From: an uncultured Desulfobacter sp.
GTDB taxonomy: Bacteria > Desulfobacterota > Desulfobacteria > Desulfobacterales > Desulfobacteraceae
Direction: 5' to 3'
Length of the DNA stretch: 64,000 nt
Assembly (NCBI GenBank): GCA_963666675.1
Contig: OY762929.1
Location: 2,300,544-2,364,543 of the forward strand
This document shows, piece after piece, positions 11,385 through 50,160 of the stretch (positions within the stretch are counted from its first letter, which is position 1; every line of letters starts with the position of its first letter). The notes under the pieces were generated by a model, which was not told the DNA's origin, made no database searches, and was given only the letters and a program-made list of their open reading frames with translations. Both the position numbers and the translations under genes were made by a program.

Positions 11385-11690
11385 TATATGAAAGTCTCAG
11401 TAAGCCACTGAGTTCTTTCAACCTTCGTTGTGGGCTGTCCTTCAGTGCTGATATGTCAGGTCAGCCCATGGCTGTTTATATGAAAGACTGGGTAAGTTAC
11501 TCAGGTCTTTTAAACTTTGTTTTGGGCTGAGCCTGGCAGTTGATATGTCCTGTCGGCCCATGGCCGTTATTACATCTAAATCTTATAAATAAGTAACGAC
11601 AGGTGGCTCAGGTTACTTTCATATTTTGGTTTGGGCTGACCTGGCAATAGACGTATGCCTGATCAGCCCAGGGCTGTAGTGGTATTAAAC
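11385..11690. repeat. three tandem degenerate copies (~92 bp each) of a dispersed intergenic REP/MITE-like repeat (stem ctcagtaagccactgag; core GTCAGGTCaGCCCATGGC)
   Basis: Direct reading. Units begin at about 11385, 11477 and 11575. The same unit recurs at 27570..27654, and a half-unit at 58490..58545. Confidence 0.6.
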
Positions 11691-11723
11691 CGCACAAATT
11701 ATATCTGTTACATCAACGACTAC

Positions 11724-11739
11724 CGTGACGAGCATCACA
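11724..11739. promoter_or_regulatory. near-perfect CRP-type site cGTGAcgagcaTCACA upstream of VKOR-DsbA gene
   Basis: 9/10 consensus positions. About 95 bp upstream of the ATG at 11828. Confidence 0.35.
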
Positions 11740-11827
11740 TTTTTTAAAAAATATAATGACTATATAAGAATAAAAGCTTAAAGGGCTTAATTTAGTTGGT
11801 AGTAACTTTTAATGGATATTTGAATCG

Positions 11828-26339: not shown

Positions 26340-27542
26340 TTACCCTTTCACAACCCCGAGAGGGCGAAGTTTGTTCAGGGGCTTGATCAAATCAAGCTGG
26401 TCTTCAATTACGGTTTCAATATTTTTATATGCCTGGGGTGCTTCCCCAAGGTCGTACATGCCCTTGGCTTTGCCGCGCCTGACCTTACTCCAGCGGTCGA
26501 AAACGATGCCTTGCATGGCCTGGTCGCAGTTTTCGGGTGTAAGTTCTCTGGTTGCCTGTAGCCGTCCCAGGACCCGCCCTGCACCATGGGAACAGGACAT
26601 GAACGACTCAGGATTACCCAGGCCTTCGACGATGAAGGAAGGGGTTCCCATTGAACCAGGAATAATTCCGGTCTCTCCTTGTTTGGCTGAGGTTGCCCCT
26701 TTTCTATGAACCCACACATTCTTATTAAAATGGTTTTCCAGGGCTGCATAATTATGGTGAATATTAACTTCATCGGCAAATTCAGTCCCGGGGAAAACTT
26801 GCGTAAAAGCATCCTTGAACCGGGTCATTATTTTTCTGCGGTTTTCACGGGCATAAGAGAGTGCAAAATTCATATCATTGATATAATTTTGCCCTTCCGC
26901 TGTCTCTGCCGGCAAAAATGCCAGGTCTTTTCCTGGTGTGTCTGCATGCCACTTTTGATTCAGTTTAACCGCAATGTCATTATAAAAGCGTGCTATCACA
27001 TTGCCCAGATGCCGGGAACCGGAGTGGATCATCAGCCAGATCCGGTCATCATCGCCTGCCTGGATTTCTATAAAATGATTGCCGCCGCCAAGGCTGCCTA
27101 AATTTTTATAGGCAAGTTTTTTAACATGGGACGAGTACCACCCTCTCTCTTCATACGCTTCAATGTCATCAAGGTTTTCCCATATCTGGGGCTCTTTATG
27201 GGCGTTACCTTCTCCACAGGGAATATATTTTTTGACCAATGTAACAGCCTCTCGTAGGTTGTGCCGGCTAGTTTCGGACACTGGGAGGTTGGTTCTGACA
27301 GATCCCATGCCACAACCGATATCCACACCCACGGCATTAGGGATAACAGCATTGTCCGCGGCAATTACGCCACCGATGGGCATACCGTAGCCCGGATGAC
27401 AGTCCGGCATCAGGGCTACGTGGTGGAAAACAACAGGGTGCATGGCCAGATCCTCGGCTTGCGCCATGGCAAGTCCTTCGAGGTTTGAACACCAGGATTT
27501 TATAGGGACTTTATATTTATCTTCTTTTTTTACCCACTCCAT
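26340..27542 (-). CDS. rtcB: RNA-splicing ligase RtcB (canonical, 3'-phosphate/5'-OH RNA ligase)
   Basis: 400 aa. Hallmark motifs DCHPGYGMPIGGV, GGGNHFIEIQ, HSGSR, SCSHGAGR. Confidence 0.85.
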   Translation of the reverse strand: MEWVKKEDKYKVPIKSWCSNLEGLAMAQAEDLAMHPVVFHHVALMPDCHPGYGMPIGGVIAADNAVIPNAVGVDIGCGMGSVRTNLPVSETSRHNLREAVTLVKKYIPCGEGNAHKEPQIWENLDDIEAYEERGWYSSHVKKLAYKNLGSLGGGNHFIEIQAGDDDRIWLMIHSGSRHLGNVIARFYNDIAVKLNQKWHADTPGKDLAFLPAETAEGQNYINDMNFALSYARENRRKIMTRFKDAFTQVFPGTEFADEVNIHHNYAALENHFNKNVWVHRKGATSAKQGETGIIPGSMGTPSFIVEGLGNPESFMSCSHGAGRVLGRLQATRELTPENCDQAMQGIVFDRWSKVRRGKAKGMYDLGEAPQAYKNIETVIEDQLDLIKPLNKLRPLGVVKG

Positions 27543-27569
27543 TTTTTATTCCTCTTTATTTTATAAGAA

Positions 27570-27654
27570 AGTCTCAGTAAGCCACTGAGTTCTTTAAACC
27601 TTTGTTGTGGGTCGAGCCTGGGTGTCGATAGATCAGGTCGGCCCATGGCTGTTA
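27570..27654. repeat. single copy of the REP/MITE-like repeat in the rtcA-rtcB spacer
   Basis: aagaaagtctcagtaagccactgagttctttaaacctttgttgtgggtcgagcctgggtgtcgatagatcaggtcggcccatggctgtt. Same unit as at 11385..11690. Confidence 0.55.
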
Positions 27655-28698
27655 TTTTTCAACTGATATCTGCCAACGGCGGTCATCAATTTTTGTACAG
27701 TTTATATTCAGGTCTAAAAATTGTTTTACGACTTCAATATTTGTCATTGTATGACGGCTGGGCGGTTGGGTGACAAATGACCCTCCACCGGCCATGGCCA
27801 AAGGGATTAACAATTGATCCGCAAGATATTTTCCCACGGGGGCATCAGAAGCCAGATAGCTTTTCACCTGACCCACACATCTTTTGGCAACCTTTTCAGC
27901 GGTAACCCCTTTGACCCCGAATCCGGTAAACACCTCTGTAAGATTTTCGCTTTCCACGCAGAGCGTCAACACGTTCCCCGGTCCATGGGAATCAAGGATG
28001 TTCACAATTTCACAGTTTTCCCAGCCCAACAGCTTTTTGACTGTTTTAATCTCTCTTGCTGCAATGTTTTCAGCCAGGTTTGCTACAAACGCCTTTGCTG
28101 TTTTATTTAATACGTCACCCCGCTGGGTGAGATCTATTTTTCCAAGAGGGGCAGGGGCAATCTCTACTTTTATCTTTCCCCCGCCAGCCGGATAAAAACC
28201 GGGGCGAATCAAAGCTGCTGACACGGTTGGGCCCATCTTGTTGATGAGCCCAATAAATGTCTGATCGAGAAAATCAAAAGGCGGGGCATATGGATTGTGG
28301 GTGCCGCCTTCCAGTATGACCTCGGACGGTCCGTCTGCCGCCAGCAATGCCGGTAATATTGTTTGAAGGACCAATGTGCAGCTTCCTGCTGTTCCGATGG
28401 CAAAATTATAATTGCCGGTGATTATATTGCTTGGTTCAAATTTAATGGACTGTGAACCGATGTTCGCACCTTCTGCCTTTGCATTGCCCACTTTGAGGGC
28501 CGCATTGACGCAGGTCAGGTGCTGCCGCATCAGTCCCGGCTTTTTTCTCCCTGCCCGGATCTTGTTTATTGTGAAAGGTTTGCCTGTAACCAGGGACAGG
28601 GCAAGGGAGGTCCTCAAAATTTGTCCGCCACCTTCTCCAAGCATTCCGTCAATCTCCAACATGATATTATCCTTTTGCTTTAACTGCGCTAAGTTCAC
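27652..28698 (-). CDS. rtcA: RNA 3'-terminal phosphate cyclase RtcA
   Basis: 348 aa. [22 protein letters not shown]...RAGR.KPGL.RQHL matches the RtcA nucleotidylation-site region (a downstream Met is a possible start). Confidence 0.8.
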
Positions 28699-29046
28699 AG
28701 CAGGTTCACAACACGATCCGCAAGCCCTTTTTCTCCGAGCACAACACTCATTTTTGAATTTGATACCACCCTTTCAAGGATATCAAGTTCACGCAGCCTC
28801 ATCAGTGTTGGATTGTTGTCCAGAAGCTTGGCTGTGTTTGCCTGGCTTCTCATGGCTGCAGTCTCTTCTCTTCTCATGATCAGGTTGGATTCTGCAGCCT
28901 TTTTGGCTTCAATGACCTTGTTCATCAGGTCTTTCATATCGCCCGGCAATATAATATCTCTGATGCCGAAGCTTCTTACCTGAATGCCTAAAGCTTGAGC
29001 GCTGTCTTGGATCGCCGCAATCAAATCATTTGATACGTTTTCTTTT
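28695..29046 (-). pseudogene. SPFH/band-7 (stomatin/HflC-like) gene, C-terminal fragment, severed by IS66 insertion
   Basis: Reading frame continuous from the IS boundary (29046) to the stop at 28695. Coiled-coil C-terminal region typical of SPFH proteins. The N-terminal half lies at 31645..32401 beyond the IS. Confidence 0.55.
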
Positions 29047-29196
29047 GTGTCCTTTCGGCAAGCCTGTGTAAATCAAAAAAATTAAGATAACATTCAAAAC
29101 AGACCCGATCCAAAAAAACAGTGTGTAAGGCGATGAGGGATAGTTTGCAGTGCAAAAATGTGTCTCAAAACATACTGGATTGGCTAAAAGGTCGTT

Positions 29197-30759
29197 TTAC
29201 AGATTATCAGCTGTTTCCCCTGATTTTTTAGCGATTGTGTTTTCAAATGACCACGGCAACCAGTCAGAAGGGTTTTGGAAGATCTCGGAAGAGTGCTTCT
29301 GTAGTGCGGTCAGGTATTCAAAGGGATTTATATTTTGCAGGTTGCAGGTATGTATCAGGCTCATGAACAGGTCGCCAATATAGGCACCGTGTTCGGTTTT
29401 ATAAAATAATGAATTTTTTCGGTGCAGAATCGACTTTTTCAGCAATTGTTCGCAAAGATTATTATCCAGCGGTGCTCCAGGGATCTCCAGGAAACGGGTC
29501 AATTCCTGCCAGTGATTCAACATATATGATATGGCCTTGCCCAGACTGGAGTTGGGTTCTACTTCTTTGTTTTCAAACTTGTCTTCCAGCCATACTTTAA
29601 GCGCCCGCATCAGTGGACCGCTGTGGGTTTGATGATATTGAAGGCGTTGAGCATCGTCCAGGCCTTGCTCCCTTACCTTATGATCGTGCTCATAAATTTT
29701 AGCCACTGTATCAATTACATGGTCACACTCCTCAGGGAAATCGTCCATGACGTCGACAAAGTTACGGCGTCCATGCACGAGACAATTGCATAATATCGAT
29801 TCAAAACCTTTTGGCAGATTCCTGGACAGAGCATCACACATCTGTATTGGCCGATCTTCTCTGGATCCCCGTTCTTTCAGAATCCTGGATAAATTTTCTC
29901 CAGCATGATTGTGGCCGGTAAAAAACAGGGCAATCTTTCCTACGTCACATTCTGACAGGATTCCGGAAGTGAACATCCCTTTTCGCTTGGCTGCCTTGTC
30001 TGTTTCTTTTATCAAGGATAAAATTTTCATTGTCGTGTCGTCATTGTACAACACCTTGCCTTGTGCAGCCTGACGGACTAACTCTGTATATACCGGATGA
30101 ATCTTGTCTGCTACGCTTTCGATGATTTCCCATTGGGTCGATGGGGGCAGCGGCATCCCCAGGCTAGCCTGAAGTTTGCCCAAGCGGTATAAAGGGACTC
30201 CTCTGCCATATTTTAGAAGGGCCAGCATGGCACCGGATTTGGCATCATATTTTTCTTTGCCCACATTGTCGGGCGCCTGGGCAGTAAAAATCTGCCCACA
30301 AAGGTTACACCGCAATCTCTGCAGTTCATATACTGTCGCCTGGAAGGGAGCACCGCCTGTTATCCGGACGATCTTGGCAGGTGGTTTTTCACCATACAAT
30401 TTACCTTTTTCACAGGCAGGGCAATCATTACCTGACTTAAGGCTTTGATGACAGATCTTGATCTTCTTGGCACCTTTATAGGCGTTTGCACCATTTTTGC
30501 CGTGACCTTTTTTCTTCTTTTTTCGTTTCGGCCGGTTCTGCGGATTCGACGTTTTCTTCTTTTCGGTCTTATCGCCGAATACCATTTTTAATAACCGTTT
30601 AATGGATGCTGCTTTTTCATTGGACAACGTATTCAAATAAGCAACGGTTTCAACCAATGCTTTGATCAACTCATAATCGCCGTCCTGCAGTTCATTTGAT
30701 CTTACCCGCTCAAGGAGCGCGTCAAGTTCGTCCTGCTTTATGTCCATCGTTTTTGACAT
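29197..30759 (-). CDS. IS66 transposase TnpC (zinc-finger + DDE)
   Basis: 520 aa. CPACEKGKL...CNLCGQ zinc-ribbon, leucine-zipper-like N-terminus. Typical IS66 Orf3 architecture. Confidence 0.8.
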   Translation of the reverse strand: MSKTMDIKQDELDALLERVRSNELQDGDYELIKALVETVAYLNTLSNEKAASIKRLLKMVFGDKTEKKKTSNPQNRPKRKKKKKGHGKNGANAYKGAKKIKICHQSLKSGNDCPACEKGKLYGEKPPAKIVRITGGAPFQATVYELQRLRCNLCGQIFTAQAPDNVGKEKYDAKSGAMLALLKYGRGVPLYRLGKLQASLGMPLPPSTQWEIIESVADKIHPVYTELVRQAAQGKVLYNDDTTMKILSLIKETDKAAKRKGMFTSGILSECDVGKIALFFTGHNHAGENLSRILKERGSREDRPIQMCDALSRNLPKGFESILCNCLVHGRRNFVDVMDDFPEECDHVIDTVAKIYEHDHKVREQGLDDAQRLQYHQTHSGPLMRALKVWLEDKFENKEVEPNSSLGKAISYMLNHWQELTRFLEIPGAPLDNNLCEQLLKKSILHRKNSLFYKTEHGAYIGDLFMSLIHTCNLQNINPFEYLTALQKHSSEIFQNPSDWLPWSFENTIAKKSGETADNL

Positions 30760-30792
30760 GAAATGTGTGCTATCACATTTAAACTCTAATGT

Positions 30793-31140
30793 CTAGATTT
30801 TTTTCCACAAAAGTACATTATTTTTTTGAGGATTTCCGTTCCATATCAACATCTGTAATTCATGTGCAGCCAATGGGTGAATTTCATCTCCTCCCTTTTT
30901 AGGCCACCATTTAAAACGCCCCTTGCTCAATCTTTTTTGACAAAGCCAGAAGCCCTGGCCATCATATATTAGTATCTTCAGGGCAGTCCCCGGTTTGTTT
31001 CTGAAAACAAAAACATATCCGGAAAAAGGATTTTGTTTTAACACCCTGCGACAAACAGCTGCCAGGCCGTCGATCCCCTTTCGAAAATCAGCAGGAGTTA
31101 CCGCCAGCATTATCCGCATTTGCGGTGTGATTTGGATCAT
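30793..31140 (-). CDS. IS66 Orf2 (TnpB)
   Basis: 115 aa MIQITPQMRIMLAVTPADFRKGIDGLAAVCRRVL... is the characteristic IS66 TnpB. Confidence 0.8.
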   Translation of the reverse strand: MIQITPQMRIMLAVTPADFRKGIDGLAAVCRRVLKQNPFSGYVFVFRNKPGTALKILIYDGQGFWLCQKRLSKGRFKWWPKKGGDEIHPLAAHELQMLIWNGNPQKNNVLLWKKI

Positions 31141-31577
31141 GGAACACCAGCCAGTAAATATTTACCAAGGCTGATCACTGCCGGGTCTGCACGACCTTTA
31201 AAACACATACGCATCTTAAAACCGGCCTGATTCTCCATTTCTATTATACAGTTGGTATCTTCCGGCGCTGGAGTGATCTCTATAAACAGGGGGGAGTCAT
31301 CGTCTTCTTCAGGAGAATCGACTGTAGTACAATGAATGGCATTATAAATTTTTTGTTTTAATGTGGTATGATTAAGCCGTAAACTGTGGGCAATCTTATT
31401 TATGCTCAGCCCTTGAGCATGGTGAAGGTCTGCTGCCGCCTGCCATAAATTATCCGGTATTCTTGACCTTCCGGTTCTGTTATTTCGCCAGTCTGCAAAA
31501 AGCTGCTGGACTTTTTCTAATGCGATTGATTGTTCTGCTGTCAATAATTGTTTATTCATCGGTCCCTCCATTAGCAA
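31137..31577 (-). CDS. IS66 Orf1 (TnpA, HTH)
   Basis: 146 aa. Position and overlap (ATGA) with Orf2 match the IS66 three-ORF layout. Confidence 0.7.
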   Translation of the reverse strand: MLMEGPMNKQLLTAEQSIALEKVQQLFADWRNNRTGRSRIPDNLWQAAADLHHAQGLSINKIAHSLRLNHTTLKQKIYNAIHCTTVDSPEEDDDSPLFIEITPAPEDTNCIIEMENQAGFKMRMCFKGRADPAVISLGKYLLAGVP

Positions 31578-31644
31578 TGTTCAAGTTGGAACCGATAATA
31601 TCACCCGGTACTGGGTATTTCACGCAGGCTTACCGGAAGGACAC

Positions 31645-32401
31645 TTTCTTTTTCGTTCAGCACTGAATCAAGTTCCAATGCACCAATCACGGATCGTAAT
31701 GCAAGTTGCGCCTCCCTGTACAAGACTTGTTGGCTGTCTTCGGACAATGATACTGATTTCAGCGCATCTGTGATGCCAAAGCTCAGCATGGCATTCATTC
31801 TCAGAGTCACTTTATCAGATGTCATGATCTCCTGGCCTGACACATTCAGGAGTTTTTCTCTCAGATCAACCGGAAAGAACCTGTTTACAGCTGTTCCGGT
31901 CCAGAAAAGATGGCGGCCTGCGGGAAGGGTCTCAACATATTTTCCATCTTTAAAGTGCACACATTTATGCCCTTCCTGGACATCAACAATATAGAAAAAT
32001 TGAGCCGCATCTTCATTTTTTGCGATCTGGGCCACAGCCTCGTGCATGAAACGAACCTGTCTTGCATCAATTATCTCAACCCTTAGTTTTTTAAAGTCTT
32101 TCCAAAGGGCGTAAAGGCCGGGGCCGAGGATTTTGGCAAACCTTCCTTCAACCCATACAAGTGCACGCTGATAATCCTCTAAGTCAATGACCTGCACGTG
32201 ATTGTCCAGCATACCAGACTTAATCATTAAATCTAAATTCTCATGAATCAGCCATGGATTTTTCATTGAGGCAATGTCTACTCTGACGCTGAAAAAGGGA
32301 TCCGCAAACCAGTGGCGGCCTTTTTCCAGGATACCTTTAAATTCTCTATCTTTGAAGTATAACCCTTTTTCGTAAGAACGGATTTTTTTTGTTCTAATCA
32401 T
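31645..32401 (-). pseudogene. SPFH/band-7 gene, N-terminal fragment (first gene of SPFH-rtcA-rtcB operon), truncated by IS66 copy 1
   Basis: ATG at 32401. SPFH-type core (KVTLRMNAMLSFGITD...). The ORF runs 43 nt into the IS before stopping. Confidence 0.55.
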
Positions 32402-32460
32402 TTTTTTTCCTTTTCGTTTTCAAGCCGTTCTCAGTCCGGCCAATGTAATGGTTTAAGAAG

Positions 32461-32476
32461 AGCAATCCGTCATCCG
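32461..32476 (-). promoter_or_regulatory. weak candidate sigma54 (-24 GG / -12 TTGCT) promoter element upstream of SPFH-rtcAB
   Basis: Minus-strand sequence cGGatgacggaTTGCt has the GG-N10-GC spacing. Only a partial match to TGGCAC-N5-TTGCW. Expected because RtcR is a sigma54 activator. Confidence 0.2.
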
Positions 32477-32731
32477 GCGACACCTGGATCTGCGGAGCAG
32501 TATTTAAGTATATGAATCATGCTTGCTTCGTTTGGCGGATACTCTGTCAAACCAAACCATAAGCTCAACATTTTTTCTTCATTCGTTGTGAACAGTTCAT
32601 ATACGGTATCCATATGCTTCATGGCGAATCCGTGGGTGTTGTTTTCTCCATCTGCCTGATAAAATTTCAGCGTTTGGGAAAACCTGCCGGATCACTTCAT
32701 GCCCTCCTTAAACCTTTTTAAGATAAACCAA

Positions 32732-32804
32732 TTACCGGAGCAGGAATCGAACCTGCAACTCTCGTGTCCTTTGCACGATGCTCTACCCATTGAGCTATCC
32801 ATTA
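32732..32804 (-). pseudogene. tRNA-like element, apparently degenerate (class I cloverleaf, A at position 33, acceptor-stem mismatch, no encoded CCA)
   Basis: Minus-strand TAATGGA-TA-GCTC-AATGGGTA-GAGC-A-TCGTG-CAAAGGA-CACGA-GAGTT-GCAGG-TTCGATT-CCTGC-TCCGGTA-A. Good D-arm (GG18-19) and T-arm (TTCGATT). The anticodon loop lacks U33, and the 5' acceptor strand has 2 changes that break pairing. Confidence 0.4.
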
Positions 32805-33046
32805 AGATGCCGTTCCTTTGTTAGAATCCATGTCCGGAACACCCAGTATTTACAGCTTTAGTTGAATACTGTGTGCCGCTGGCCCGGTGGCATCTGCCTT
32901 TGCTATAAAGCAACGGGTGTGCCAGTTGCTAAAAGAAATATTTATAAAATTATAACTATTTAAAAAAATAGTGATTATGACGAGTTTTGGGGCATTAGAA
33001 GCTTGACATGTGATATTTGCGTTTTGTAAAATATAGAAATATTGAT

Positions 33047-34651
33047 ATGAAAAAAACGGTTGTAATCGGGATTTTAGGGCCTGTACTTGATAGAGGGGAA
33101 AATGCATCACGGTGGGAACACTGGCGGCCAACTGTGGCGATATGTCAGCACAGCGAGCTTTTGGTAGATCGCTTTGAGCTCCTTTATGAGAAAAATTATA
33201 CTCGTCTGATGAAGCGGGTAAGAGAGGATATCCGGGATGTCTCTCCGGAAACGCAAGTGGTTCCTGTTGAAACCGATTTTTCTGATCCGTGGGATTTTGA
33301 AGAGGTATATGGCGTATTGCTCGATTTTGCCAAAGGATACCACTTTGATATTGAAAATGAAGATTATTTGATTCATATCACCACAGGGACCCATGTTGCC
33401 CAGATATGCCTTTTCCTTCTCATCGAATCAAACTATTTGCCGGGTCGGTTATTGCAGACAAGTCCTCCCCATAGAAAAAGGAACCATGATCTGAGCGGGG
33501 AATATAGAATTATTGATTTGGATCTTTCCCGATATGATCAGATTGCCATGCGATTCGAGCAGGAGATGAAAGATGATATTTCTTTTCTAAAATCCGGCAT
33601 AGAAACACGGAACCCATCGTTTAATAATTTGATTGAACAAATTGAGCGTGTTGCCATCAACTCGGTTGACCCTGTTTTGATAACAGGCCCCACCGGCGCT
33701 GGTAAATCCCGTTTGACCAGAAGGGTGTATGAATTGAAAAAAGCCAGACGCCAGTTAAAAGGGCGTTTTGTGGAAGTCAATTGTGCGACCTTGAGAGGTG
33801 ATGGGGCAATGTCTGCTCTTTTCGGGCATAAAAAAGGGTCATTTACAGGGGCGACCAGCGACAGGGACGGCCTTTTAAAAACAGCAGATAACGGCATGCT
33901 GTTTTTAGACGAGGTGGGCGAACTTGGCCTGGACGAGCAGTCCATGCTGCTTAGGGCAGTTGAGGAAAAGCAGTTCCTGCCTGTGGGTTCCGATACCGAG
34001 GCCCATAGTGACTTCCAACTGATTTGTGGTACCAACCGGAACCTGTTTCAAGATGTCATGGAAAAAAGATTCCGGGAGGATCTTCTTGCCAGAATAAATC
34101 TATGGACGTTTGAAATGCCGGGATTGAATAAGCGGCCTGAAGATATTGAGCCGAATTTGAACTACGAACTTGACCGTTTCACCGAAAGAACCAAACGGCA
34201 TATCACATTCAATAAGGAGGCTCGGAATCGATTTTTAAAATTTGCAACCTCCCCCGAAGCGCTCTGGCCTGCAAATTTTCGAGATCTTAACGGCGCCATT
34301 ACAAGAATGGCAACACTTGCACCTGGTGGCAGGATCACGGACCAGGTTGTCAAAGATGAAATCCATAGACTATCCCTTAGATGGGGCTCCTTTCCAAAGC
34401 AAAGAGATGATGGAATATTAGTGGAACTGATCGGTGAAGAACGAACTGCAGCTCTTGATCGATTTGAAAAAATACAGCTTGCAGATGTTATTAGAATCTG
34501 TCGCACTTCCAAAAATATTGCACAGGCAGGCAGAACTCTTTTTGCAGCATCAAGAAAAAGAAAGACACGTTCAAATGATTCGGACCGACTGAGAAAATAT
34601 CTTTCTAGATATCAAATAAGCTTTCAAACTCTCCGATTACTTCAAAAGTAA
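33047..34651 (+). CDS. rtcR: RtcR: sigma54-dependent transcriptional activator with N-terminal CARF domain, AAA+ sigma54-interaction domain and C-terminal HTH
   Basis: N-terminal region MKKTVVIGILGPVLDRG...WRPT..ICQ...LIHITTGTHVAQICLFLL is the RtcR CARF signature. Central GPTGAGKS Walker A and GAFTGA-like FGHKKGSFTGA region. Divergent from the rtc operon. The ORF-track start 33017 is probably too early. Confidence 0.8.
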   Translation: MKKTVVIGILGPVLDRGENASRWEHWRPTVAICQHSELLVDRFELLYEKNYTRLMKRVREDIRDVSPETQVVPVETDFSDPWDFEEVYGVLLDFAKGYHFDIENEDYLIHITTGTHVAQICLFLLIESNYLPGRLLQTSPPHRKRNHDLSGEYRIIDLDLSRYDQIAMRFEQEMKDDISFLKSGIETRNPSFNNLIEQIERVAINSVDPVLITGPTGAGKSRLTRRVYELKKARRQLKGRFVEVNCATLRGDGAMSALFGHKKGSFTGATSDRDGLLKTADNGMLFLDEVGELGLDEQSMLLRAVEEKQFLPVGSDTEAHSDFQLICGTNRNLFQDVMEKRFREDLLARINLWTFEMPGLNKRPEDIEPNLNYELDRFTERTKRHITFNKEARNRFLKFATSPEALWPANFRDLNGAITRMATLAPGGRITDQVVKDEIHRLSLRWGSFPKQRDDGILVELIGEERTAALDRFEKIQLADVIRICRTSKNIAQAGRTLFAASRKRKTRSNDSDRLRKYLSRYQISFQTLRLLQK

Positions 34652-35045: not shown

Positions 35046-35447
35046 TCACAACACTCGAATTCCTGATGAGTTGTTCAGCAGAATCCACAAAAAAAGCAGA
35101 CCTGGAAAGCCCCTGGCTTTTGCAACCCTGTCAATCTTGATAAGTTTATACTCAGGAACCGTAATATTTATCCTCTGGGTCTTGGGAGCGATGAAGGTAA
35201 AATCAATATCAGAAAGGTACAAAAAACTGTCTCTGGTATACAAATCTGAATCTAAAAGGTCGTCCATTTTAGAGGGAGTCGGGGGTTCAGAGATGTCTTC
35301 GCCGTTATAATATAATTCTACCGCTTCTTGTATGTTAAGGATGGCTTCCTCCTGGGTATCACCATATGCAAAACATCCAGGGATATCAGGTATAGTCACC
35401 CCGTAACCGGTGTTATCGTCCTTATGAATAATTACCGGATATTTCAT
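35046..35447 (-). CDS. hicB: HicB-family antitoxin
   Basis: 133 aa. N-terminal MKYPVIIHKDDNTGYGVTIPDIPGCFAYGDTQEEAILNIQEAVELY is typical of HicB. Directly downstream of hicA with a 1-bp gap. Confidence 0.65.
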   Translation of the reverse strand: MKYPVIIHKDDNTGYGVTIPDIPGCFAYGDTQEEAILNIQEAVELYYNGEDISEPPTPSKMDDLLDSDLYTRDSFLYLSDIDFTFIAPKTQRINITVPEYKLIKIDRVAKARGFPGLLFLWILLNNSSGIRVL

Positions 35448-35448
35448 T

Positions 35449-35649
35449 TCACTTTCTCCATTTTAATCCTGCCATTCTATAAATATTTCTGGCTGTCCCA
35501 ATAGGTAGATCTTTTTGTAGATGAGGTACAATTACAATTTTACAATTTTCATGCTTGAATTTGTGATGATCACCAGACACTTTAACCAATACGAATCCAG
35601 CATTTTTAAGTTCTTTTATGATCTGCCTGCTGTTTATATCTATAAACAC
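35449..35649 (-). CDS. hicA: HicA-family mRNA-interferase toxin
   Basis: 66 aa. ELKNAGFVLVKVSGDHHKFKHENCKIVIVPHLQKDLPIGTARNIYRMAGL matches the HicA dsRBD-like fold signature. Confidence 0.7.
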   Translation of the reverse strand: MFIDINSRQIIKELKNAGFVLVKVSGDHHKFKHENCKIVIVPHLQKDLPIGTARNIYRMAGLKWRK

Positions 35650-35984: not shown

Positions 35985-36652
35985 TCAAGACGAACAGCTA
36001 TAGTGTGAAACGCCGCCAACGTTAAAAAATGCCTCAGGTTTTAGACGATAATATTTATCTTCTACCCTCTGCGATTGCTCATCATATGGAGAGCTAAGAA
36101 CGTCTTGCAACTCCCTTACTAAGGTGTAGTCACCCAGCATGGCTTGTTGATAGGCGGGGGCAATCAACCACTCTCGCCATGCGTATTTGGGATTTGTTTG
36201 TTTCATTTTTGTCGATATCTCAGCCAAATTTCCGCCTTTGATAACAAGGTCGCGCCAGCTTTTCAGCCAAGATTGCCATTGCTCATCAAGTTGCTGAGAG
36301 TTCTTGTTATAGAAGCTCTTTTTCAAGGCGGAAATAGTCTCTGGTACATGGGATAATTCACGGAAGAAAATGGTGTAATCCACCTCTGATTTGGTCAGTA
36401 ACTGCATTAATCCCTGCACTATATTTGGTTGATAGTCTGTCAAGCCAAGCTTGGCGGCCCACATGTTTTGCATTTGTTTTTCCATTGCCGCTGCAAAACC
36501 ATGACGTATTTGATCCAATTGTTCCAAAGCTTGGGCATCTTTTGCAAGCAGCGGTCTCACTGTAGTCCAAAACATGTGGTAATTGGCTTCTGCTGCGGTT
36601 GGCTGATTGAAGAAGGAAAAGTGTTCTCCGCCCCCGGTCCATGGCTGAAACC
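35985..36652 (-). pseudogene. selO: selO (YdiU/UPF0061 protein adenylyltransferase) C-terminal fragment, split by IS66 copy 2
   Basis: Continues the SelO sequence after ...[17 protein letters not shown] with FNQPTAAEANYHMFWTTVRPLL.... The 5' part of the annotated ORF (to 36761) is IS-derived. Confidence 0.6.
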
Positions 36653-36802
36653 GTGTCCTTTCGGCAAGCCTGTGTAAATCAAAAAAATTAAGATAACATT
36701 CAAAACAGACCCGATCCAAAAAAACAGTGTGTAAGGCGATGAGGGATAGTTTGCAGTGCAAAAATGTGTCTCAAAACATACTGGATTGGCTAAAAGGTCG
36801 TT

Positions 36803-38365
36803 TTACAGATTATCAGCTGTTTCCCCTGATTTTTTAGCGATTGTGTTTTCAAATGACCACGGCAACCAGTCAGAAGGGTTTTGGAAGATCTCGGAAGAGT
36901 GCTTCTGTAGTGCGGTCAGGTATTCAAAGGGATTTATATTTTGCAGGTTGCAGGTATGTATCAGGCTCATGAACAGGTCGCCAATATAGGCACCGTGTTC
37001 GGTTTTATAAAATAATGAATTTTTTCGGTGCAGAATCGACTTTTTCAGCAATTGTTCGCAAAGATTATTATCCAGCGGTGCTCCAGGGATCTCCAGGAAA
37101 CGGGTCAATTCCTGCCAGTGATTCAACATATATGATATGGCCTTGCCCAGACTGGAGTTGGGTTCTACTTCTTTGTTTTCAAACTTGTCTTCCAGCCATA
37201 CTTTAAGCGCCCGCATCAGTGGACCGCTGTGGGTTTGATGATATTGAAGGCGTTGAGCATCGTCCAGGCCTTGCTCCCTTACCTTATGATCGTGCTCATA
37301 AATTTTAGCCACTGTATCAATTACATGGTCACACTCCTCAGGGAAATCGTCCATGACGTCGACAAAGTTACGGCGTCCATGCACGAGACAATTGCATAAT
37401 ATCGATTCAAAACCTTTTGGCAGATTCCTGGACAGAGCATCACACATCTGTATTGGCCGATCTTCTCTGGATCCCCGTTCTTTCAGAACCCTGGATAAAT
37501 TTTCTCCAGCATGATTGTGGCCGGTAAAAAACAGGGCAATCTTTCCTACGTCACATTCTGACAGGATTCCGGAAGTGAACATCCCTTTTCGCTTGGCTGC
37601 CTTGTCTGTTTCTTTTATCAAGGATAAAATTTTCATTGTCGTGTCGTCATTGTACAACACCTTGCCTTGTGCAGCCTGACGGACTAACTCTGTATATACC
37701 GGATGAATCTTGTCTGCTACGCTTTCGATGATTTCCCATTGGGTCGATGGGGGCAGCGGCATCCCCAGGCTAGCCTGAAGTTTGCCCAAGCGGTATAAAG
37801 GGACTCCGCTGCCATATTTTAGAAGGGCCAGCATGGCACCGGATTTGGCATCATATTTTTCTTTGCCCACATTGTCGGGCGCCTGGGCAGTAAAAATCTG
37901 CCCACAAAGGTTACACCGCAATCTCTGCAGTTCATATACTGTCGCCTGGAAGGGAGCACCGCCTGTTATCCGGACGATCTTGGCAGGTGGTTTTTCACCA
38001 TACAATTTACCTTTTTCACAGGCAGGGCAATCATTACCTGACTTAAGGCTTTGATGACAGATCTTGATCTTCTTGGCACCTTTATAGGCGTTTGCACCAT
38101 TTTTGCCGTGACCTTTTTTCTTCTTTTTTCGTTTCGGCCGGTTCTGCGGATTCGACGTTTTCTTCTTTTCGGTCTTATCGCCGAATACCATTTTTAATAA
38201 CCGTTTAATGGATGCTGCTTTTTCATTGGACAACGTATTCAAATAAGCAACGGTTTCAACCAATGCTTTGATCAACTCATAATCGCCGTCCTGCAGTTCA
38301 TTTGATCTTACCCGCTCAAGGAGCGCGTCAAGTTCGTCCTGCTTTATGTCCATCGTTTTTGACAT
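36803..38365 (-). CDS. IS66 transposase TnpC (copy 2; 2 aa differences from copy 1)
   Basis: Identical 520-aa translation except R/S and I/V substitutions. Confidence 0.8.
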   Translation of the reverse strand: MSKTMDIKQDELDALLERVRSNELQDGDYELIKALVETVAYLNTLSNEKAASIKRLLKMVFGDKTEKKKTSNPQNRPKRKKKKKGHGKNGANAYKGAKKIKICHQSLKSGNDCPACEKGKLYGEKPPAKIVRITGGAPFQATVYELQRLRCNLCGQIFTAQAPDNVGKEKYDAKSGAMLALLKYGSGVPLYRLGKLQASLGMPLPPSTQWEIIESVADKIHPVYTELVRQAAQGKVLYNDDTTMKILSLIKETDKAAKRKGMFTSGILSECDVGKIALFFTGHNHAGENLSRVLKERGSREDRPIQMCDALSRNLPKGFESILCNCLVHGRRNFVDVMDDFPEECDHVIDTVAKIYEHDHKVREQGLDDAQRLQYHQTHSGPLMRALKVWLEDKFENKEVEPNSSLGKAISYMLNHWQELTRFLEIPGAPLDNNLCEQLLKKSILHRKNSLFYKTEHGAYIGDLFMSLIHTCNLQNINPFEYLTALQKHSSEIFQNPSDWLPWSFENTIAKKSGETADNL

Positions 38366-38398
38366 GAAATGTGTGCTATCACATTTAAACTCTAATGT

Positions 38399-38746
38399 CT
38401 AGATTTTTTTCCACAAAAGTACATTATTTTTTTGAGGATTTCCGTTCCATATCAACATCTGTAATTCATGTGCAGCCAATGGGTGAATTTCATCTCCTCC
38501 CTTTTTAGGCCACCATTTAAAACGCCCCTTGCTCAATCTTTTTTGACAAAGCCAGAAGCCCTGGCCATCATATATTAGTATCTTCAGGGCAGTCCCCGGT
38601 TTGTTTCTGAAAACAAAAACATATCCGGAAAAAGGATTTTGTTTTAACACCCTGCGACAAACAGCTGCCAGGCCGTCGATCCCCTTTCGAAAATCAGCAG
38701 GAGTTACCGCCAGCATTATCCGCATTTGCGGTGTGATTTGGATCAT
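38399..38746 (-). CDS. IS66 Orf2 (TnpB), copy 2
   Basis: Identical to the 30793..31140 product. Confidence 0.8.
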   Translation of the reverse strand: MIQITPQMRIMLAVTPADFRKGIDGLAAVCRRVLKQNPFSGYVFVFRNKPGTALKILIYDGQGFWLCQKRLSKGRFKWWPKKGGDEIHPLAAHELQMLIWNGNPQKNNVLLWKKI

Positions 38747-39183
38747 GGAACACCAGCCAGTAAATATTTACCAAGGCTGATCACTGCCGGGTCTGCACGA
38801 CCTTTAAAACACATACGCATCTTAAAACCGGCCTGATTCTCCATTTCTATTATACAGTTGGTATCTTCCGGCGCTGGAGTGATCTCTATAAACAGGGGGG
38901 AGTCATCGTCTTCTTCAGGAGAATCGACTGTAGTACAATGAATGGCATTATAAATTTTTTGTTTTAATGTGGTATGATTAAGCCGTAAACTGTGGGCAAT
39001 CTTATTTATGCTCAGCCCTTGAGCATGGTGAAGGTCTGCTGCCGCCTGCCATAAATTATCCGGTATTCTTGACCTTCCGGTTCTGTTATTTCGCCAGTCT
39101 GCAAAAAGCTGCTGGACTTTTTCTAATGCGATTGATTGTTCTGCTGTCAATAATTGTTTATTCATCGGTCCCTCCATTAGCAA
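38743..39183 (-). CDS. IS66 Orf1 (TnpA), copy 2
   Basis: Identical to the 31137..31577 product. Confidence 0.7.
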   Translation of the reverse strand: MLMEGPMNKQLLTAEQSIALEKVQQLFADWRNNRTGRSRIPDNLWQAAADLHHAQGLSINKIAHSLRLNHTTLKQKIYNAIHCTTVDSPEEDDDSPLFIEITPAPEDTNCIIEMENQAGFKMRMCFKGRADPAVISLGKYLLAGVP

Positions 39184-39250
39184 TGTTCAAGTTGGAACCG
39201 ATAATATCACCCGGTACTGGGTATTTCACGCAGGCTTACCGGAAGGACAC

Positions 39251-40324
39251 GAAGGAAAAGTGTTCTCCGCCCCCGGTCCATGGCTGAAACCCGGGGTCGA
39301 AAATTTCACAGAATCCAAATGGTCCATAGTCGAGGGTAAAGCCGCCGGCAGCGCAGTTGTCACTATTAAAATTACCCTGGCAGTACCCAATACGCTGCCA
39401 ATTGGCCACTAATGACGTTAGCCGCCTGCGAAAAACCTTTGCCAACTCAACCACTTGATCCGTAAAAAAAAGGTCTTGATTGATATCGTTTTGGTATTCC
39501 CGGTCAATTAAATGCGATACAATCATGCGCAACTCTTCCAAGGCGCCTGGATGGGCATTGCCGCGAACCCGGCGGGCAAATAACTCTAACTGGCCAACGC
39601 GCAAAAAAGAGGGTGCAACGCGGGTTGAAATAGCCACAGGATTATCCATCATAATGTCAGGATCGGTGGAATGGGAGTCTTGGGCGTACCAGGGCCGGGC
39701 AACGCGCTCAGATTTTGATACATACAGGGTTAAAGATCGTGTTGTGGGAACCCCCAGGGCGTGCATATACTCTTGGGCGAGGAACTCACGCACACTTGAA
39801 CGAAGTACTGCACGCCCGTCGGCGCCACGGCAATAAGGCGTTGGACCACCGCCCTTTAGCTGCATTTCCCAACGCTGTCCTTTGAATACCCCTTCAAATA
39901 CTGATATCGCCCGACCATCGCCATAACCATTACCGGTTCCAAATGGACATTGTTGGGTATATTCGGTGCCGTAGATTGACAGGGCATAGCCAACGGACCA
40001 GCCAATTTTACGCATAGGCTTTTGCGCGGCTGAAATATCACCGGAAAATACCCGGCAAAATTTCGGATCATTTACCAACGCGTCGTTCAACCCAAGTTCA
40101 TTAAAAAAAGTCCTGCTATGGATTACATATTCCGGGTCCGGAAGCGGCGTGGGCCTGACCGGTACGAAGTGACCGGAAAATACCTGGCGGGCACGGTGGT
40201 CATCCCCATCTCCTGTGGCATCAGGATCGGCCTTTAAGGTGTCCATCAAAGAATAATCGGCTAATCTCACAAACTCGTCGAAAGTCGATATGCGCTCCTG
40301 AGCAGATGGCTTAGATAATGTCAT
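39251..40324 (-). pseudogene. selO: selO N-terminal fragment (kinase-fold adenylyltransferase domain)
   Basis: 358 aa ...[43 protein letters not shown]...[12 protein letters not shown] match conserved SelO/YdiU motifs. The last 4 codons of the ORF are IS-derived. Confidence 0.6.
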
Positions 40325-44562: not shown

Positions 44563-45110
44563 ATGAAAAAGGGAAAAGTCTTATCGTGTATTTTTATTAT
44601 TATTTTTTCTGTTTGCATAAAAATAAATCCTATCTTAGCATCGGATTCTCCAATTTTTGAGGATAATTTCGACGTTACAAACAATTGGTCTGCAGATAAT
44701 GGAGTATGGGAAGTTGGTATACCGACCAGCGGACCGGGAAGCGCCAATAGCAGCACAAATTGTGCTGGGACAATTTTAAATGGTAATTATCCTGATAATA
44801 CGGACAGCCGTCTTATTGGACCCTTTCGTTCCCCTTGGGATCAAGGTATTGAGCTTCCCGAGGTGACTGGAGATGAAGAGATCCGCCTGCGTTTTTGGCA
44901 CTGGTTTTCCTATTCCAACTATAATTACCCCAACCATTATGACCGGTATGACAAAGGACATGTCCAAGTCGATGTTTTTGACGAAGATACAGGCAGTTGG
45001 CCGGGAAACTGGCAGACTTTGGGCAGTGTTCAGGCGTATTCACCTGTATGGTCTTTGATGAGTGTGGATCTCACCGCTTTTGCCGGTCAGAAAATCAGGA
45101 TTGCATTCTA
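44563..45110 (+). pseudogene. 5' fragment (signal peptide + first ~175-aa beta-sandwich repeat) of secreted repeat protein, truncated by transposon insertion
   Basis: MKKGKVLSCIFIIIFSVCIKINPILA signal. Repeat sequence identical to units in 48103..50160. Diverges from the repeat consensus after ...QKIRIAFY at about 45109. Confidence 0.6.
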
Positions 45111-45355
45111 TTGTTAATTCTTTCCCTACAGTACCTCTATATCATCTAAAAATCCCACCTATCGTTACATTTTCTGAGAAAATAATGAGCTTGTTAAATA
45201 AGATTTTTTAAAAAAGAAAAGGCACATCGGTAGACAGCAGGAACCGCCCGATGCCTTGGCATCCTCCTCCCCCCCTTTGGGGGGGATAAGAGGGGGGGAT
45301 TGTGGTATAGATTAAGTTCGCCAAAACCATCACCACCACAACCCCGACCCTGCTT

Positions 45356-48128: not shown

Positions 48129-50160
48129 CTATCACACTGAAAGCAGGAACAGTAATTATCCGTCAACCAGTACCGGCTGGTATATTGATGACATCCAAAT
48201 TATAAAAATGGAGCCGGAATTCAGTGGTGACTTTGAGATGGGATGGGAAGACTGGTCGGCAGATAACGGCGTGTGGGGGGGTGGAACACCCACTGGGGGG
48301 CCCGAAGGATGTTATAGTGGCGATCAATGTGCCGGAACTATTTTGGATGATAAGTACCCTTCATTTACCGATAGCCGTTTAGTAAGCCCGACTTTGGCTC
48401 TTCCCAAAACTGTAGCAAATGAAGAGATCCGCCTGCGTTTTTGGCACTGGTTTTCCTATTCCAATTATAATTACCCCAACCATTATGACCGGTATGACAA
48501 AGGACATGTCCAAGTCGATGTTTTTGACGAAGATACAGGCAGTTGGCCGGGAAACTGGCAGACTTTGGGCAGTATTCAGGAGTATTCACCTGTATGGTCT
48601 TTGATGAGTGTGGATCTCACCGCTTTTGCCGGCCAAAAAATCAGGATTGCATTTTATCATACCGAAGGTAGGCATTATAACTATTCTTCCGTTAAGGCCG
48701 GCTGGTATATTGATGACATCCAAATTATAAAAATGGAGCCGGAATTCAGTGGTGACTTTGAGATGGGATGGGAAGACTGGTCGGCAGATAACGGCGTGTG
48801 GGGGATTGGAACACCCGCTGGGGGGCCCGAAGGATGTTATGGTGGCGATCAATGTGCCGGAACTATTTTGGATGGTAAGTACCCTTCATTTACCGATAGC
48901 CGTTTAGTAAGCCCGACTTTGGCTCTTCCCGAAGCTCTAGCAAATGAAGAGATCCGCCTGCGTTTTTGGCACTGGTTTTCCTATTCCAATTATAATTACC
49001 CCAACCATTATGACCGGTATGACAAAGGACATGTCCAAGTCGATGTTTTTGACGAAGATACAGGCAGTTGGCCGGGAAACTGGCAGACTTTGGGCAGTGT
49101 TCAGGAGTATTCACCTGTATGGTCTTTGATGAGTGTGGATCTCACCGCTTTTGCCGGCCAAAAAATCAGGATTGCATTTTATCATACCGAAGGCAGGCAT
49201 TATAACTATTCTTCCGTTAAGGCCGGCTGGTATGTTGATGACATCCAAATTATAAAAATTGAGCCGGAATTTAGTGGCGACTTTGAGATGGGATGGTTAG
49301 GCTGGCTGGCAGATAACGGCGTGTGGGAGATTGGAACACCCGCTGGGGGGCCTGAAGGATGTTATGGTGGCGATCAATGTGCCGGAACTATTTTGGGTGG
49401 GAATTATCCCAATTATACCGACAGCAGGCTTGTCAGCTCCCCCATTGACCTGACTGAATGTTCGCAGCAAGTAGTCTATCTGCAGCTTAATGAATGGTTC
49501 TCTTCTCCCGATGACTTTGGAGAAATCCAGATATCCACTTGGGATTTTGAAACTAGACAGTGGTCTACCTGGAACACTGAGAGTACCAGTTCAGGCCTAT
49601 CTCCAGTATGGACATTAAAATATGTTGATCTATCCGCTTATTCAGGAAAACTTTTCAAAATTGGTTTTCATCATGTAGCGAACAGTTCATCCACGAGCCA
49701 TGGCTGGTTTGTTGATAACATTGAACTTGTAGGCCCTGAGCAGATAATGCCAACAATTAAATCTATCTCTTTTTCTTCTTACATACCGGATTGCACATCG
49801 CTGATAGATATTTTTGCCAGCGATCCCTGCGGTGGAGGGTTAACCTATACATGGCAGCTTCCCGACGGAGGAACCCTTGAAGGAACAGAAGGGAATATGG
49901 AATTTATTCCCCCAGAGTTTAGGGTTGAACCATATAGAGTCCGTGTTGCCGCTTCATCAAACTCTACACAAATTAACTCGTATACGAAAACTCTTAAAAT
50001 ATTCACCCAAGTAGTATACGACCTTGATAGCGATGATGATATTGATGGATCTGATCTATCAACGTTCCTAACAAACGAAGAAGTTAATGCAACAACGATT
50101 TCACGATTTGCCGAGGAGTTCGGCATGATAGCCTGTGAGCATTATAGCAGAAATCTTTAA
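48129..50160 (+). pseudogene. 3' portion of secreted tandem-repeat protein (3 more ~175-aa units, a divergent 4th beta-sandwich unit, Cys-containing segment and dockerin-like C-terminus)
   Basis: In-frame continuation of the repeat (HTESRNSNYPSTSTGWYIDDIQ...). C-terminal VVYDLDSDDDIDGSDLSTF is a dockerin/EF-hand-like Ca-binding motif. ORF track 48103..50160. Confidence 0.6.
48175..49750 (+). repeat. 525-bp tandem direct repeats x3 (units 1 and 2 >95% identical at DNA level) within repeat-protein gene
   Basis: ggctggtatattgatgacatccaaattataaaaatggagccggaattcagtgg recurs at 48175, 48700, 49225. The antisense ORF artefacts are also duplicated. Confidence 0.8.

What the first reader, a model, noticed from the sequence alone, without database searches (positions are those of the whole stretch)
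36612..39291. IS66 copy 2 is flanked by a perfect 41-bp direct duplication, whereas copy 1 has the canonical 8-bp TSD
Copy 1 shows TTTCTTTT on both sides, the standard IS66 8-bp target duplication. Copy 2 is flanked by two identical 41-bp copies of selO coding sequence (gaaggaaaagtgttctccgcccccggtccatggctgaaacc), and the selO peptide [13 protein letters not shown] is encoded on both sides. A 41-bp target duplication is atypical for IS66. It suggests an unusual staggered cleavage, an aberrant or one-ended transposition event, or a post-insertion repair event.
Basis: seen in the sequence. Interest (0 to 1): 0.55.

Follow-up and report, generated by a model that had tools for sequence, protein, structure and literature searches.

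The report
IS66 clade making long target duplications
A mobile element of the IS66 family that split the selO gene is flanked by a perfect 41-bp copy of the target instead of the usual 8 bp, and relatives of the same element elsewhere carry 16-, 25- and 251-bp duplications, so this branch of the family appears to make long, variable target duplications, which I found no report of for IS66.

Summary
A 2598-bp IS66-family element (tnpA-tnpB-tnpC) occurs twice. Copy 1 (29047-31644) has an 8-bp duplication, TTTCTTTT. Copy 2 (36653-39250) sits between two identical 41-mers (36612-36652 and 39251-39291). Removing the IS and one 41-mer restores an intact 566-aa SelO, and ten intact orthologues carry the motif once, so the repeat was made by the insertion.

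It is not a one-off. An identical IS copy in a Mu-like prophage contig has a perfect 251-bp flanking duplication. More distant relatives with the same GTGTCC termini have 25-bp and 16-bp duplications; the 25-bp case was seen in two assemblies. Of 12 copies with both junctions readable, six have 7-8 bp, four have 16-251 bp and two have none. An outgroup IS66 gave 8, 8, 8 and none.

The most likely cause is loosely coupled strand transfer by the two IS ends, with 8 bp as the usual stagger. This is inferred, not shown. Two nearby insertions followed by recombination, insertion at a replication fork, and assembly error are less likely.

The nearest parallels are IS1549/IS1634, the IS1202 group, and isolated reports for ISH2 and HERV-K. 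I rate it a new variant of a known kind, of moderate interest.

The parts
36612..36652 (.). Left copy of the 41-bp target duplication (selO coding sequence)
   Evidence: Exact match to 39251-39291; bases outside differ
39251..39291 (.). Right copy of the 41-bp target duplication
36653..39250 (-). IS66-family element, copy 2 (2598 bp). It is 100% identical to the copies in L001 and L004.
   Evidence: Boundaries set by comparison with copy 1 and with L001/L004
36653..36676 (+). Terminal inverted repeat on the tnpC side, GTGTCCTTTCGGCAAGCCTGTGTA
   Evidence: 20 of 24 positions match the other end, read from the sequence. The canonical GTAAGC motif lies 11 nt inside the tip.
39227..39250 (-). Terminal inverted repeat on the tnpA side, GTGTCCTTCCGGTAAGCCTGCGTG (reverse complement)
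   Evidence: The same 28-nt end is conserved in 52 metagenome contigs.
36803..38365 (-). tnpC, DDE transposase (520 aa)
   Evidence: PF03050 DDE_Tnp_IS66, E=2e-47
38399..38746 (-). tnpB (115 aa)
   Evidence: PF05717 TnpB_IS66, E=1e-28
38743..39183 (-). tnpA/orf1 (140-146 aa, no Pfam match)
   Evidence: ORF position. The exact 140-aa product was found in three other contigs.
39251..40324 (-). selO 5' fragment (residues 1-357 of SelO). The called ORF 39236-40324 runs 15 nt into the IS.
   Evidence: Annotated in NCBI as SelO family protein WP_319393897.1.
35985..36652 (-). selO 3' fragment
29047..31644 (-). IS copy 1 (2 substitutions relative to copy 2, giving TnpC R186S and I293V), inserted in a Band_7/SPFH gene
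29039..29046 (.). Canonical 8-bp duplication TTTCTTTT, left of copy 1
31645..31652 (.). Canonical 8-bp duplication TTTCTTTT, right of copy 1

Best explanation
The 41-bp repeat is a genuine target-site duplication made in one transposition event by an active IS66-family element. In this clade (termini GTGTCCTTYCGGYAAGCC...) the joining of the two IS ends to opposite target strands seems only loosely coupled. The usual stagger is 8 bp, but the second end often joins tens to hundreds of bases further along. Host repair synthesis then fills the single-stranded stretch and duplicates it.

Shown: the anatomy, that the duplication arose with the insertion, that long duplications recur at independent loci, and that 8-bp events coexist with them. 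Inferred: the wide-stagger, uncoupled strand-transfer step.

Two consequences follow. First, the 41-bp and especially the 251-bp repeats are long enough for homologous recombination to remove the IS precisely and restore the gene. Second, a long duplication that spans a gene boundary, as in L001, leaves an intact copy of both flanking genes.
For: - The duplication is exact and abuts the IS termini defined by three other copies.
- The empty site reconstructs to an intact SelO, and ten orthologues carry the motif once.
- The same IS at 100% identity in ENA contig ERZ21831247:contig_74 has a perfect 251-bp flanking duplication, L001 8865-9115 = 11714-11964.
- A relative with 61% TnpC identity has a 25-bp TSD, identical in two separately assembled samples.
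- A relative with 59% TnpC identity has a 16-bp TSD, and removing the IS plus 16 bp restores a 210-aa open frame.
- Five other clade copies have 8 bp and one has 7 bp, so the element can also make the canonical product.
- The lengths cluster at short distances (16, 25, 41, then 251). A distance-dependent second strand transfer would give this pattern; independent random insertions would not.
- An outgroup IS66 analysed the same way gave 8, 8, 8 and none.
- The window genome and several related loci carry contig names typical of long-read assemblers: ctg...l/c as in hifiasm, contig_N as in Flye. The assembler is inferred from the names only.
Against: - No biochemical or genetic data on this element exist, and the transposition mechanism of IS66 is unknown.
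- Only 12 copies had both junctions readable.
- Two copies (L060, L075) have no duplication at all, and 9 of 13 short-read JGI contigs with both ends had readable flanks and showed none. The behaviour is therefore heterogeneous and part of the data is uninterpretable.
- I could not inspect raw reads for the window.
- A rigid DDE transpososome normally fixes the stagger, so a loose one needs a special explanation.
- The base rate of long duplications in other IS66 clades was sampled with only 4 copies.
Confidence: 0.55

Rival explanations
1. Insertion at a replication fork or between sister duplexes. The two IS ends join different sister duplexes just behind a fork, or a gapped lagging strand, at positions a variable distance apart. 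Loss of the broken arms leaves one chromosome with the interval duplicated. This is still a single event, but the variable length comes from the state of the target rather than from the transpososome.
For: It predicts perfect duplications of variable length, up to hundreds of bp, alongside normal 8-bp events, as observed. In the 12 good loci, 9 insertions are co-oriented with neighbouring genes and none is opposed (gene tables).
Against: The orientation bias did not hold in a larger, cruder sample of 28 metagenome flanks: 9 co-oriented, 7 opposed, 12 ambiguous. Nothing links IS66 to forks. The model does not explain why an outgroup IS66 shows only 8 bp, though that sample is n=4.
Confidence: 0.17
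2. Two-step origin. Two independent same-orientation insertions with 8-bp duplications occurred 33 bp apart on different chromosome copies or in different cells. Homologous recombination within the IS then joined the left flank of one to the right flank of the other, duplicating the interval.
For: The outcome would be identical in sequence to what is seen. The IS is active and multicopy, with 100% identical copies in several contexts. A comparable 'pseudo-TSD' recombination model is discussed for HERV-K (PMC5488345). IS-IS recombination is documented for IS66 (PMC6778807).
Against: It needs two insertions within 8, 17, 33 and 243 bp of each other, in the same orientation, at four independent loci out of 12. 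Even if insertions were confined by selection to a 1.7-kb gene, a spacing of 33 bp or less in the same orientation has a chance of roughly 2% per case (my estimate). No locus with two closely spaced copies was seen. The 8-bp duplications show no shared target motif that would suggest hotspots.
Confidence: 0.1
3. Assembly or consensus artefact at a repeated element in a metagenome-assembled genome.
For: The window comes from a metagenome assembly ('uncultured Desulfobacter sp.', 6,482,017-bp contig), and I could not see reads. Thirteen short-read contigs with both IS ends lack any duplication, which shows that some assemblies around this IS are unreliable.
Against: A contig spanning two near-identical 2.6-kb copies 7.6 kb apart implies long reads. 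No known assembler error places the same unique 41-mer precisely on both sides of a repeat. Long duplications appear in contigs whose names suggest four different assemblers, including two samples that give the identical 25-bp case.
Confidence: 0.04
4. A 41-bp tandem duplication, or an internal gene repeat, already existed in selO, and the IS happened to land exactly at its junction.
For: None beyond formal possibility.
Against: All ten intact orthologues are 566 aa and carry the motif once. A 41-bp tandem repeat would already frameshift the gene. The IS would have to hit the exact junction and make no duplication of its own. The same coincidence would be needed at three other loci.
Confidence: 0.01

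Closest known systems
Canonical IS66-family elements (IS66 of Agrobacterium, IS679, ISDge4; the Vibrio-type IS66 examined here)
   Same: Three-gene layout tnpA-tnpB(PF05717)-tnpC(PF03050 DDE), a size of about 2.6 kb, imperfect terminal inverted repeats, and an 8-bp duplication at about half of the copies.
   Different: Published IS66 insertions are reported with 8 bp (PMC6778807, PMC12898284), and the outgroup here gave 8, 8, 8 and none. In this clade a third of readable copies have 16-251 bp. The termini also carry an 11-nt extension (GTGTCCTTYCG) outside the usual GTAAGC start. The statement that canonical ends begin GTAA is from my own knowledge.
IS1549 / IS1634 (IS1634 family)
   Same: Long direct repeats whose length varies from copy to copy (8-514 bp), with no mechanistic model so far (PMC2266710).
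   Different: An unrelated transposase lineage: IS4-related, a single ORF, and a typical duplication of 5-6 bp. No homology to TnpC.
IS1202 group of the IS1202 family
   Same: Unusually long duplications of 16-28 bp for a DDE insertion sequence (PMC10132070).
   Different: The length is characteristic of each subgroup rather than ranging from 8 to 251 bp within one element. The transposase resembles TnsB/MuA.
Isolated long duplications in other DDE elements: ISH2 with 55 bp in Halobacterium; HERV-K (HML-2) with 13-450 bp
   Same: An element with a short canonical duplication occasionally shows a very long perfect one. Recombination between the long repeats could restore the pre-insertion allele (PMC7002104; PMC5488345).
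   Different: These are rare anecdotes in different families. Here four long cases were found among 12 copies of one clade.

Membership tests
IS66 family (ISfinder sense) | DDE transposase TnpC of the IS66 type | tested here: met
   PF03050, E=2e-47, above the curated cut-off
IS66 family (ISfinder sense) | Accessory TnpB (IS66 Orf2) upstream of tnpC, preceded by a small orf1/tnpA | tested here: met
   PF05717, E=1e-28. tnpA 38743-39183 overlaps tnpB by 4 nt. tnpA has no Pfam match.
IS66 family (ISfinder sense) | Terminal inverted repeats of about 20-30 bp, classically starting GTAA | tested here: inconclusive
   Inverted repeats are present (20/24), but they start GTGTCC. GTAAGCC lies 11 nt inside the tip. 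The same ends occur in relatives down to 44% TnpC identity.
IS66 family (ISfinder sense) | 8-bp target-site duplication | tested here: inconclusive
   Met at copy 1 and at four further copies, with 7 bp at another. Not met at copy 2 (41 bp), L001 (251), L068 (25) or L071 (16)..
IS1634/IS1549-type elements with long variable repeats | Direct repeats of long and variable length among copies of one element | tested here: met
   8, 41 and 251 bp for IS copies at least 99.9% identical
IS1634/IS1549-type elements with long variable repeats | Single IS4-related transposase of the IS1634 family | tested here: not met
   The transposase matches PF03050 (IS66 type) in a three-gene element. It behaves like these elements but is not a member.
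SelO / YdiU protein adenylyltransferase (the target gene) | Full-length colinear similarity to solved SelO structures once the insertion is removed | tested here: met
   6eac_A, E=1.5e-48, query residues 43-538, one stretch across the junction. Orthologues are 566 aa.

The most novel reading that the evidence does not exclude
A whole clade of IS66-family elements, recognisable by GTGTCC-extended termini and spanning Desulfobacterales, Chromatiales and other MAGs, intrinsically makes target duplications of variable length (8 to at least 251 bp) because its two strand transfers are not rigidly coupled. By the literature I could search, that would make it one of very few prokaryotic IS groups with this behaviour and the first in IS66. 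It would give an experimental handle on the unknown IS66 mechanism. It would also create insertions that revert readily by homologous recombination and that can spare both flanking genes.
Probability: 0.45. Interest if true: 0.65.

Novelty: new variant of a known kind. Interest (0 to 1): 0.58.

Why it matters
The length of the target duplication is treated as a fixed signature of an IS family. It is used both to classify elements and to infer the geometry of the transpososome. One IS66 element giving 8, 41 and 251 bp, with relatives giving 16 and 25 bp, shows the signature is not fixed here. This hints that IS66, whose mechanism and three-protein requirement remain unexplained, may join its two ends to the target in separable steps.

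There are practical consequences. Annotation pipelines that look for an 8-bp duplication will mis-call the boundaries or label such copies as lacking a duplication.

There are biological consequences too. Flanking repeats of 41-251 bp are substrates for homologous recombination, so these insertions should revert precisely far more often than 8-bp ones. That would make gene inactivation (selO here) potentially reversible. The 251-bp case shows an insertion that leaves both neighbouring phage genes intact.

Tried and rejected
1. Chance: rejected. None of 100 shuffles gave a match, and the repeat abuts the IS ends exactly.
2. Internal repeat of selO: rejected.
3. Target sequences resembling an IS end that could misplace one strand transfer: the best matches, 9-11 of 18, are no better than shuffles at all four long-duplication sites.
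4. Hairpin or cruciform extrusion of the duplicated segment, which would bring distant positions together: folding z-scores were 0.38, -0.22 and -1.49, and the 16-mer forms no structure. Not supported.
5. Orientation bias relative to target genes: 9 of 12 co-oriented in the good loci, but 9:7 with 12 ambiguous in metagenome flanks. Dropped.
6. A shared target motif among the duplications: none evident by eye.
7. Thirteen JGI short-read contigs carry both IS ends of 3.4-3.7-kb relatives. Nine had readable flanks and none of these shows a duplication, short or long. In the case I read (L016) the flanking ORFs look unrelated. I treat these contigs as probably chimeric and uninformative, but this remains unexplained.
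8. More copies from the source genome: the 6.48-Mb contig could not be reached through the look-up tools.
9. Viral and phage collections: no clade members.
10. A 2647-bp Legionella 'plasmid' consisting of an IS66 element, checked as a possible circular intermediate: the record is linear, an unplaced fragment.
11. Literature: four full-text searches naming IS66 or the IS66 family found no report of long or variable duplications in IS66. Han et al. 2001 (PMC95320) is not held.
12. Multiples of 8 bp or of the helical repeat in the lengths 8, 16, 25, 41, 251: no convincing periodicity by my own arithmetic.
Full report
**1. The observation**

The 41-mer GAAGGAAAAGTGTTCTCCGCCCCCGGTCCATGGCTGAAACC occurs exactly twice in the window, at 36612-36652 and 39251-39291. 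There are no near matches, and no shuffle produced one. The bases just outside the repeat differ on both sides, so it is exactly 41 bp.

Between the two copies lies a 2598-bp element at 36653-39250. A second copy at 29047-31644 differs at two positions. Homology between the copies ends exactly at GTGTCC...GGACAC, which fixes the termini. Copy 1 is flanked by TTTCTTTT on both sides. It interrupts a Band_7/SPFH gene whose two halves cover profile positions 3-118 and 124-175, as expected for a simple insertion.

The element encodes:
- a 140-146-aa orf1;
- TnpB (PF05717, E=1e-28);
- a DDE transposase TnpC (PF03050, E=2e-47).

The ends are imperfect inverted repeats matching at 20 of 24 positions. 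The classical IS66 GTAAGC motif lies 11 nt inside the tip. That canonical IS66 ends begin with this motif is from my own knowledge.

**2. The 41-mer is a duplication made by the insertion**

Deleting the IS and one 41-mer restores an uninterrupted 566-aa ORF on the minus strand. This ORF aligns in a single colinear stretch with solved SelO structures: 6eac_A, E=1.5e-48, residues 43-538, running straight through the junction.

The source is an 'uncultured Desulfobacter sp.' contig of 6,482,017 bp. Ten intact SelO proteins from the same 90% cluster (Desulfobacter postgatei, Desulfotignum, Desulfospira and others) are all 566 aa, 88-93% identical without gaps, and carry the W-T-G-G-G motif once.

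**3. It is not unique**

Exact-protein look-ups for TnpC and TnpA returned other contigs that carry the element.

| Locus | Source | Identity to window IS | Flanking duplication |
|---|---|---|---|
| window copy 1 | source genome | 2 substitutions | 8 bp, TTTCTTTT |
| window copy 2 | source genome | reference | 41 bp |
| L001 | ENA ERZ21831247 contig_74, Mu-like prophage | 100% | 251 bp, perfect (8865-9115 = 11714-11964) |
| L004 | ctg5149l | 100% | 8 bp, ATTTACTC |
| L006 | MAG labelled Planctomycetota | 99.4% | 7 bp |
| L061 | closed 6.32-Mb Desulfobacter genome | 95% | 8 bp |
| L062 | closed 6.32-Mb Desulfobacter genome | 95% | 8 bp |
| L060 (= L059) | same genome, and a 3.19-Mb contig | 96% | none |
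| L068 (= L069) | two ENA samples, assembled separately | TnpC 61% | 25 bp, GGTAACCGCCTTTTTCGGATTTAAG |
| L071 | JGI contig | TnpC 59% | 16 bp |
| L073 | Thiodictyon plasmid pTs417 | TnpC 44.5%, same GTGTCC ends | 8 bp |
| L075 | Thiodictyon plasmid pTs417 | 100% identical to the L073 copy | none |

In L001 the duplication spans the end of a traR-like gene and the start of a DUF2730 gene. A complete copy of each gene survives, one on each side of the IS.

In L071, removing the IS plus 16 bp restores a 210-aa open frame. Keeping both copies of the 16-mer breaks that frame.

The tally for the clade is 12 copies with both junctions readable: six with 7-8 bp, four with 16-251 bp and two with none.

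As a control, a more distant IS66 (36% TnpC identity, ends GTGAGC) on four plasmids gave 8, 8, 8 and none with the same procedure.

**4. Mechanism**

The length of a target duplication equals the distance between the two positions, on opposite strands, where the IS ends are joined. Repair synthesis only fills that interval. A long perfect duplication therefore means widely spaced strand transfers, or else a rearrangement that mimics them.

I favour a single event with loosely coupled ends, at confidence 0.55, for three reasons:
- the same element yields both canonical and long products;
- long products recur at independent loci;
- the lengths are concentrated at short distances (16, 25, 41, then 251).

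A two-step route would require two same-orientation insertions a few tens of bp apart, followed by recombination within the IS. This gives the same sequence. However, it needs spacings of 8, 17, 33 and 243 bp at four loci out of twelve. By my estimate the chance is about 2% per case even if insertions were confined to one 1.7-kb gene. No intermediate was seen, and the 8-bp duplications show no common motif suggesting hotspots.

A variant in which the two ends join sister duplexes at a replication fork cannot be excluded. An apparent co-orientation with neighbouring genes in the good loci (9 of 12) did not hold in a cruder sample of 28 metagenome flanks, which split 9:7 with 12 ambiguous.

The two copies with no duplication fit either strand transfers of the opposite polarity, which would delete target bases, or ordinary IS-IS recombination, which is documented for IS66 (PMC6778807). 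I could not distinguish these.

Assembly error is unlikely. The window contig spans two near-identical 2.6-kb copies, which implies long reads. The 25-bp case is identical in two samples. The long cases come from contigs whose names suggest different assemblers. I could not inspect reads.

Two target-based ideas were tested and failed:
- the duplicated segments and their surroundings do not resemble IS ends more than shuffles do;
- they have no unusual hairpin potential.

**5. Comparison with what is known**

Published IS66 insertions carry 8 bp (PMC6778807, citing Machida 1984; ISDge4 in PMC12898284). Four full-text searches naming IS66 found no report of long or variable duplications in IS66.

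[quoted passage not shown] It resembles less closely the IS1202 group, at 16-28 bp (PMC10132070). Single anecdotes exist for ISH2 at 55 bp (PMC7002104) and for HERV-K proviruses at up to 250-450 bp (PMC5488345).

The element is a member of the IS66 family by gene content. It behaves like IS1634-type elements in its duplications without being related to them.

**6. Consequences (inference)**

Repeats of 41 and 251 bp exceed the roughly 25-bp minimum for efficient RecA-dependent recombination in E. coli; this figure is from my own knowledge. Such insertions should therefore be lost precisely far more often than 8-bp ones, restoring selO or the prophage. A long duplication across a gene boundary also preserves both genes, as the L001 sequence shows.

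**7. Verdict**

I rate it a new variant of a known kind, with interest 0.58.

The main weaknesses are the small sample, the lack of read-level verification, the uninterpretable short-read contigs (13 with both ends, of which the 9 with readable flanks show no duplication), and a mechanism that is only inferred.

Noticed in passing
window 11382-11476, 11474-11568, 27559-27653; L004 about 330-735 and 5041-5135: A dispersed repeat of about 92-95 nt. In the window there are two tandem copies, plus one copy between rtcB and rtcA. In L004 it forms a tandem array next to a cas6 gene. No Rfam family matches it at gathering score. In L004 an IS110-family element sits at the end of the array, suggesting the repeat is its target.
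   Followed up: partly
L068 5117-5998; L071 5206-5859: The 3.4-3.7-kb relatives of this IS carry a fourth ORF between tnpB and tnpC. In L068 it matches PF14236, DruA of the Druantia defence system (E=8.5e-32). Why a DruA-like gene travels inside an IS66 element is unclear.
   Followed up: partly
L003 11073-15217: A 2833-bp unit made of an IS66 fragment (IS positions 1441 to 353) plus an IS110-family element is repeated in tandem up to the contig end. The IS110 element is inserted at position 353 of the IS66 tnpC. This could be tandem amplification, a circular form, or an assembly effect at the contig end.
   Followed up: partly
L016, L017, L023, L033, L037, L040, L045, L047, L051 (JGI contigs): Nine short-read metagenome contigs containing complete relatives with clear inverted repeats show no flanking duplication of any length. 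They are probably chimeric joins through a multicopy repeat, but this was not proven.
   Followed up: partly
L060 9117-11713 (= L059); L075 3001-5837: Two copies in closed or high-quality sequences have no duplication at all. This could reflect IS-IS recombination or insertion with loss of target bases.
   Followed up: no
window 26340-34651: Copy 1 sits in an RNA-repair locus that I read, from the ORF translations and my own knowledge and without testing, as rtcB (26340-27542), rtcA (27652-28698) and a divergent sigma54-type regulator resembling RtcR (33017-34651). The disrupted Band_7/SPFH gene was confirmed by Pfam, and a tRNA-Leu(aag) at 32731-32805 was found by ARAGORN and Rfam.
   Followed up: partly
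window 35046-35649: Two small minus-strand ORFs (133 and 66 aa) between the IS copies look like a HicB/HicA antitoxin-toxin pair, judged from their sequences and my own knowledge. Not tested.
   Followed up: no
window 44854-45111 and 48130-49479: Three tandem copies of a 525-bp unit (75-95% identical), plus a related 258-bp segment 3.5 kb upstream. This is probably a repetitive coding region.
   Followed up: no
L006 (CAUVYI020000015.1, labelled Planctomycetota MAG) 1762-4359: An IS copy 99.4% identical to the Desulfobacter one sits in a contig binned as Planctomycetota. This points to either recent horizontal transfer or mis-binning.
   Followed up: no
window 29047-31644 versus 36653-39250: The two copies are in direct orientation, 5 kb apart. 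They bracket the tRNA-Leu, the RtcR-like regulator, the HicAB-like pair and the 3' part of selO. Each has its own duplication, so they inserted independently, but together they could now mobilise or delete the interval.
   Followed up: no
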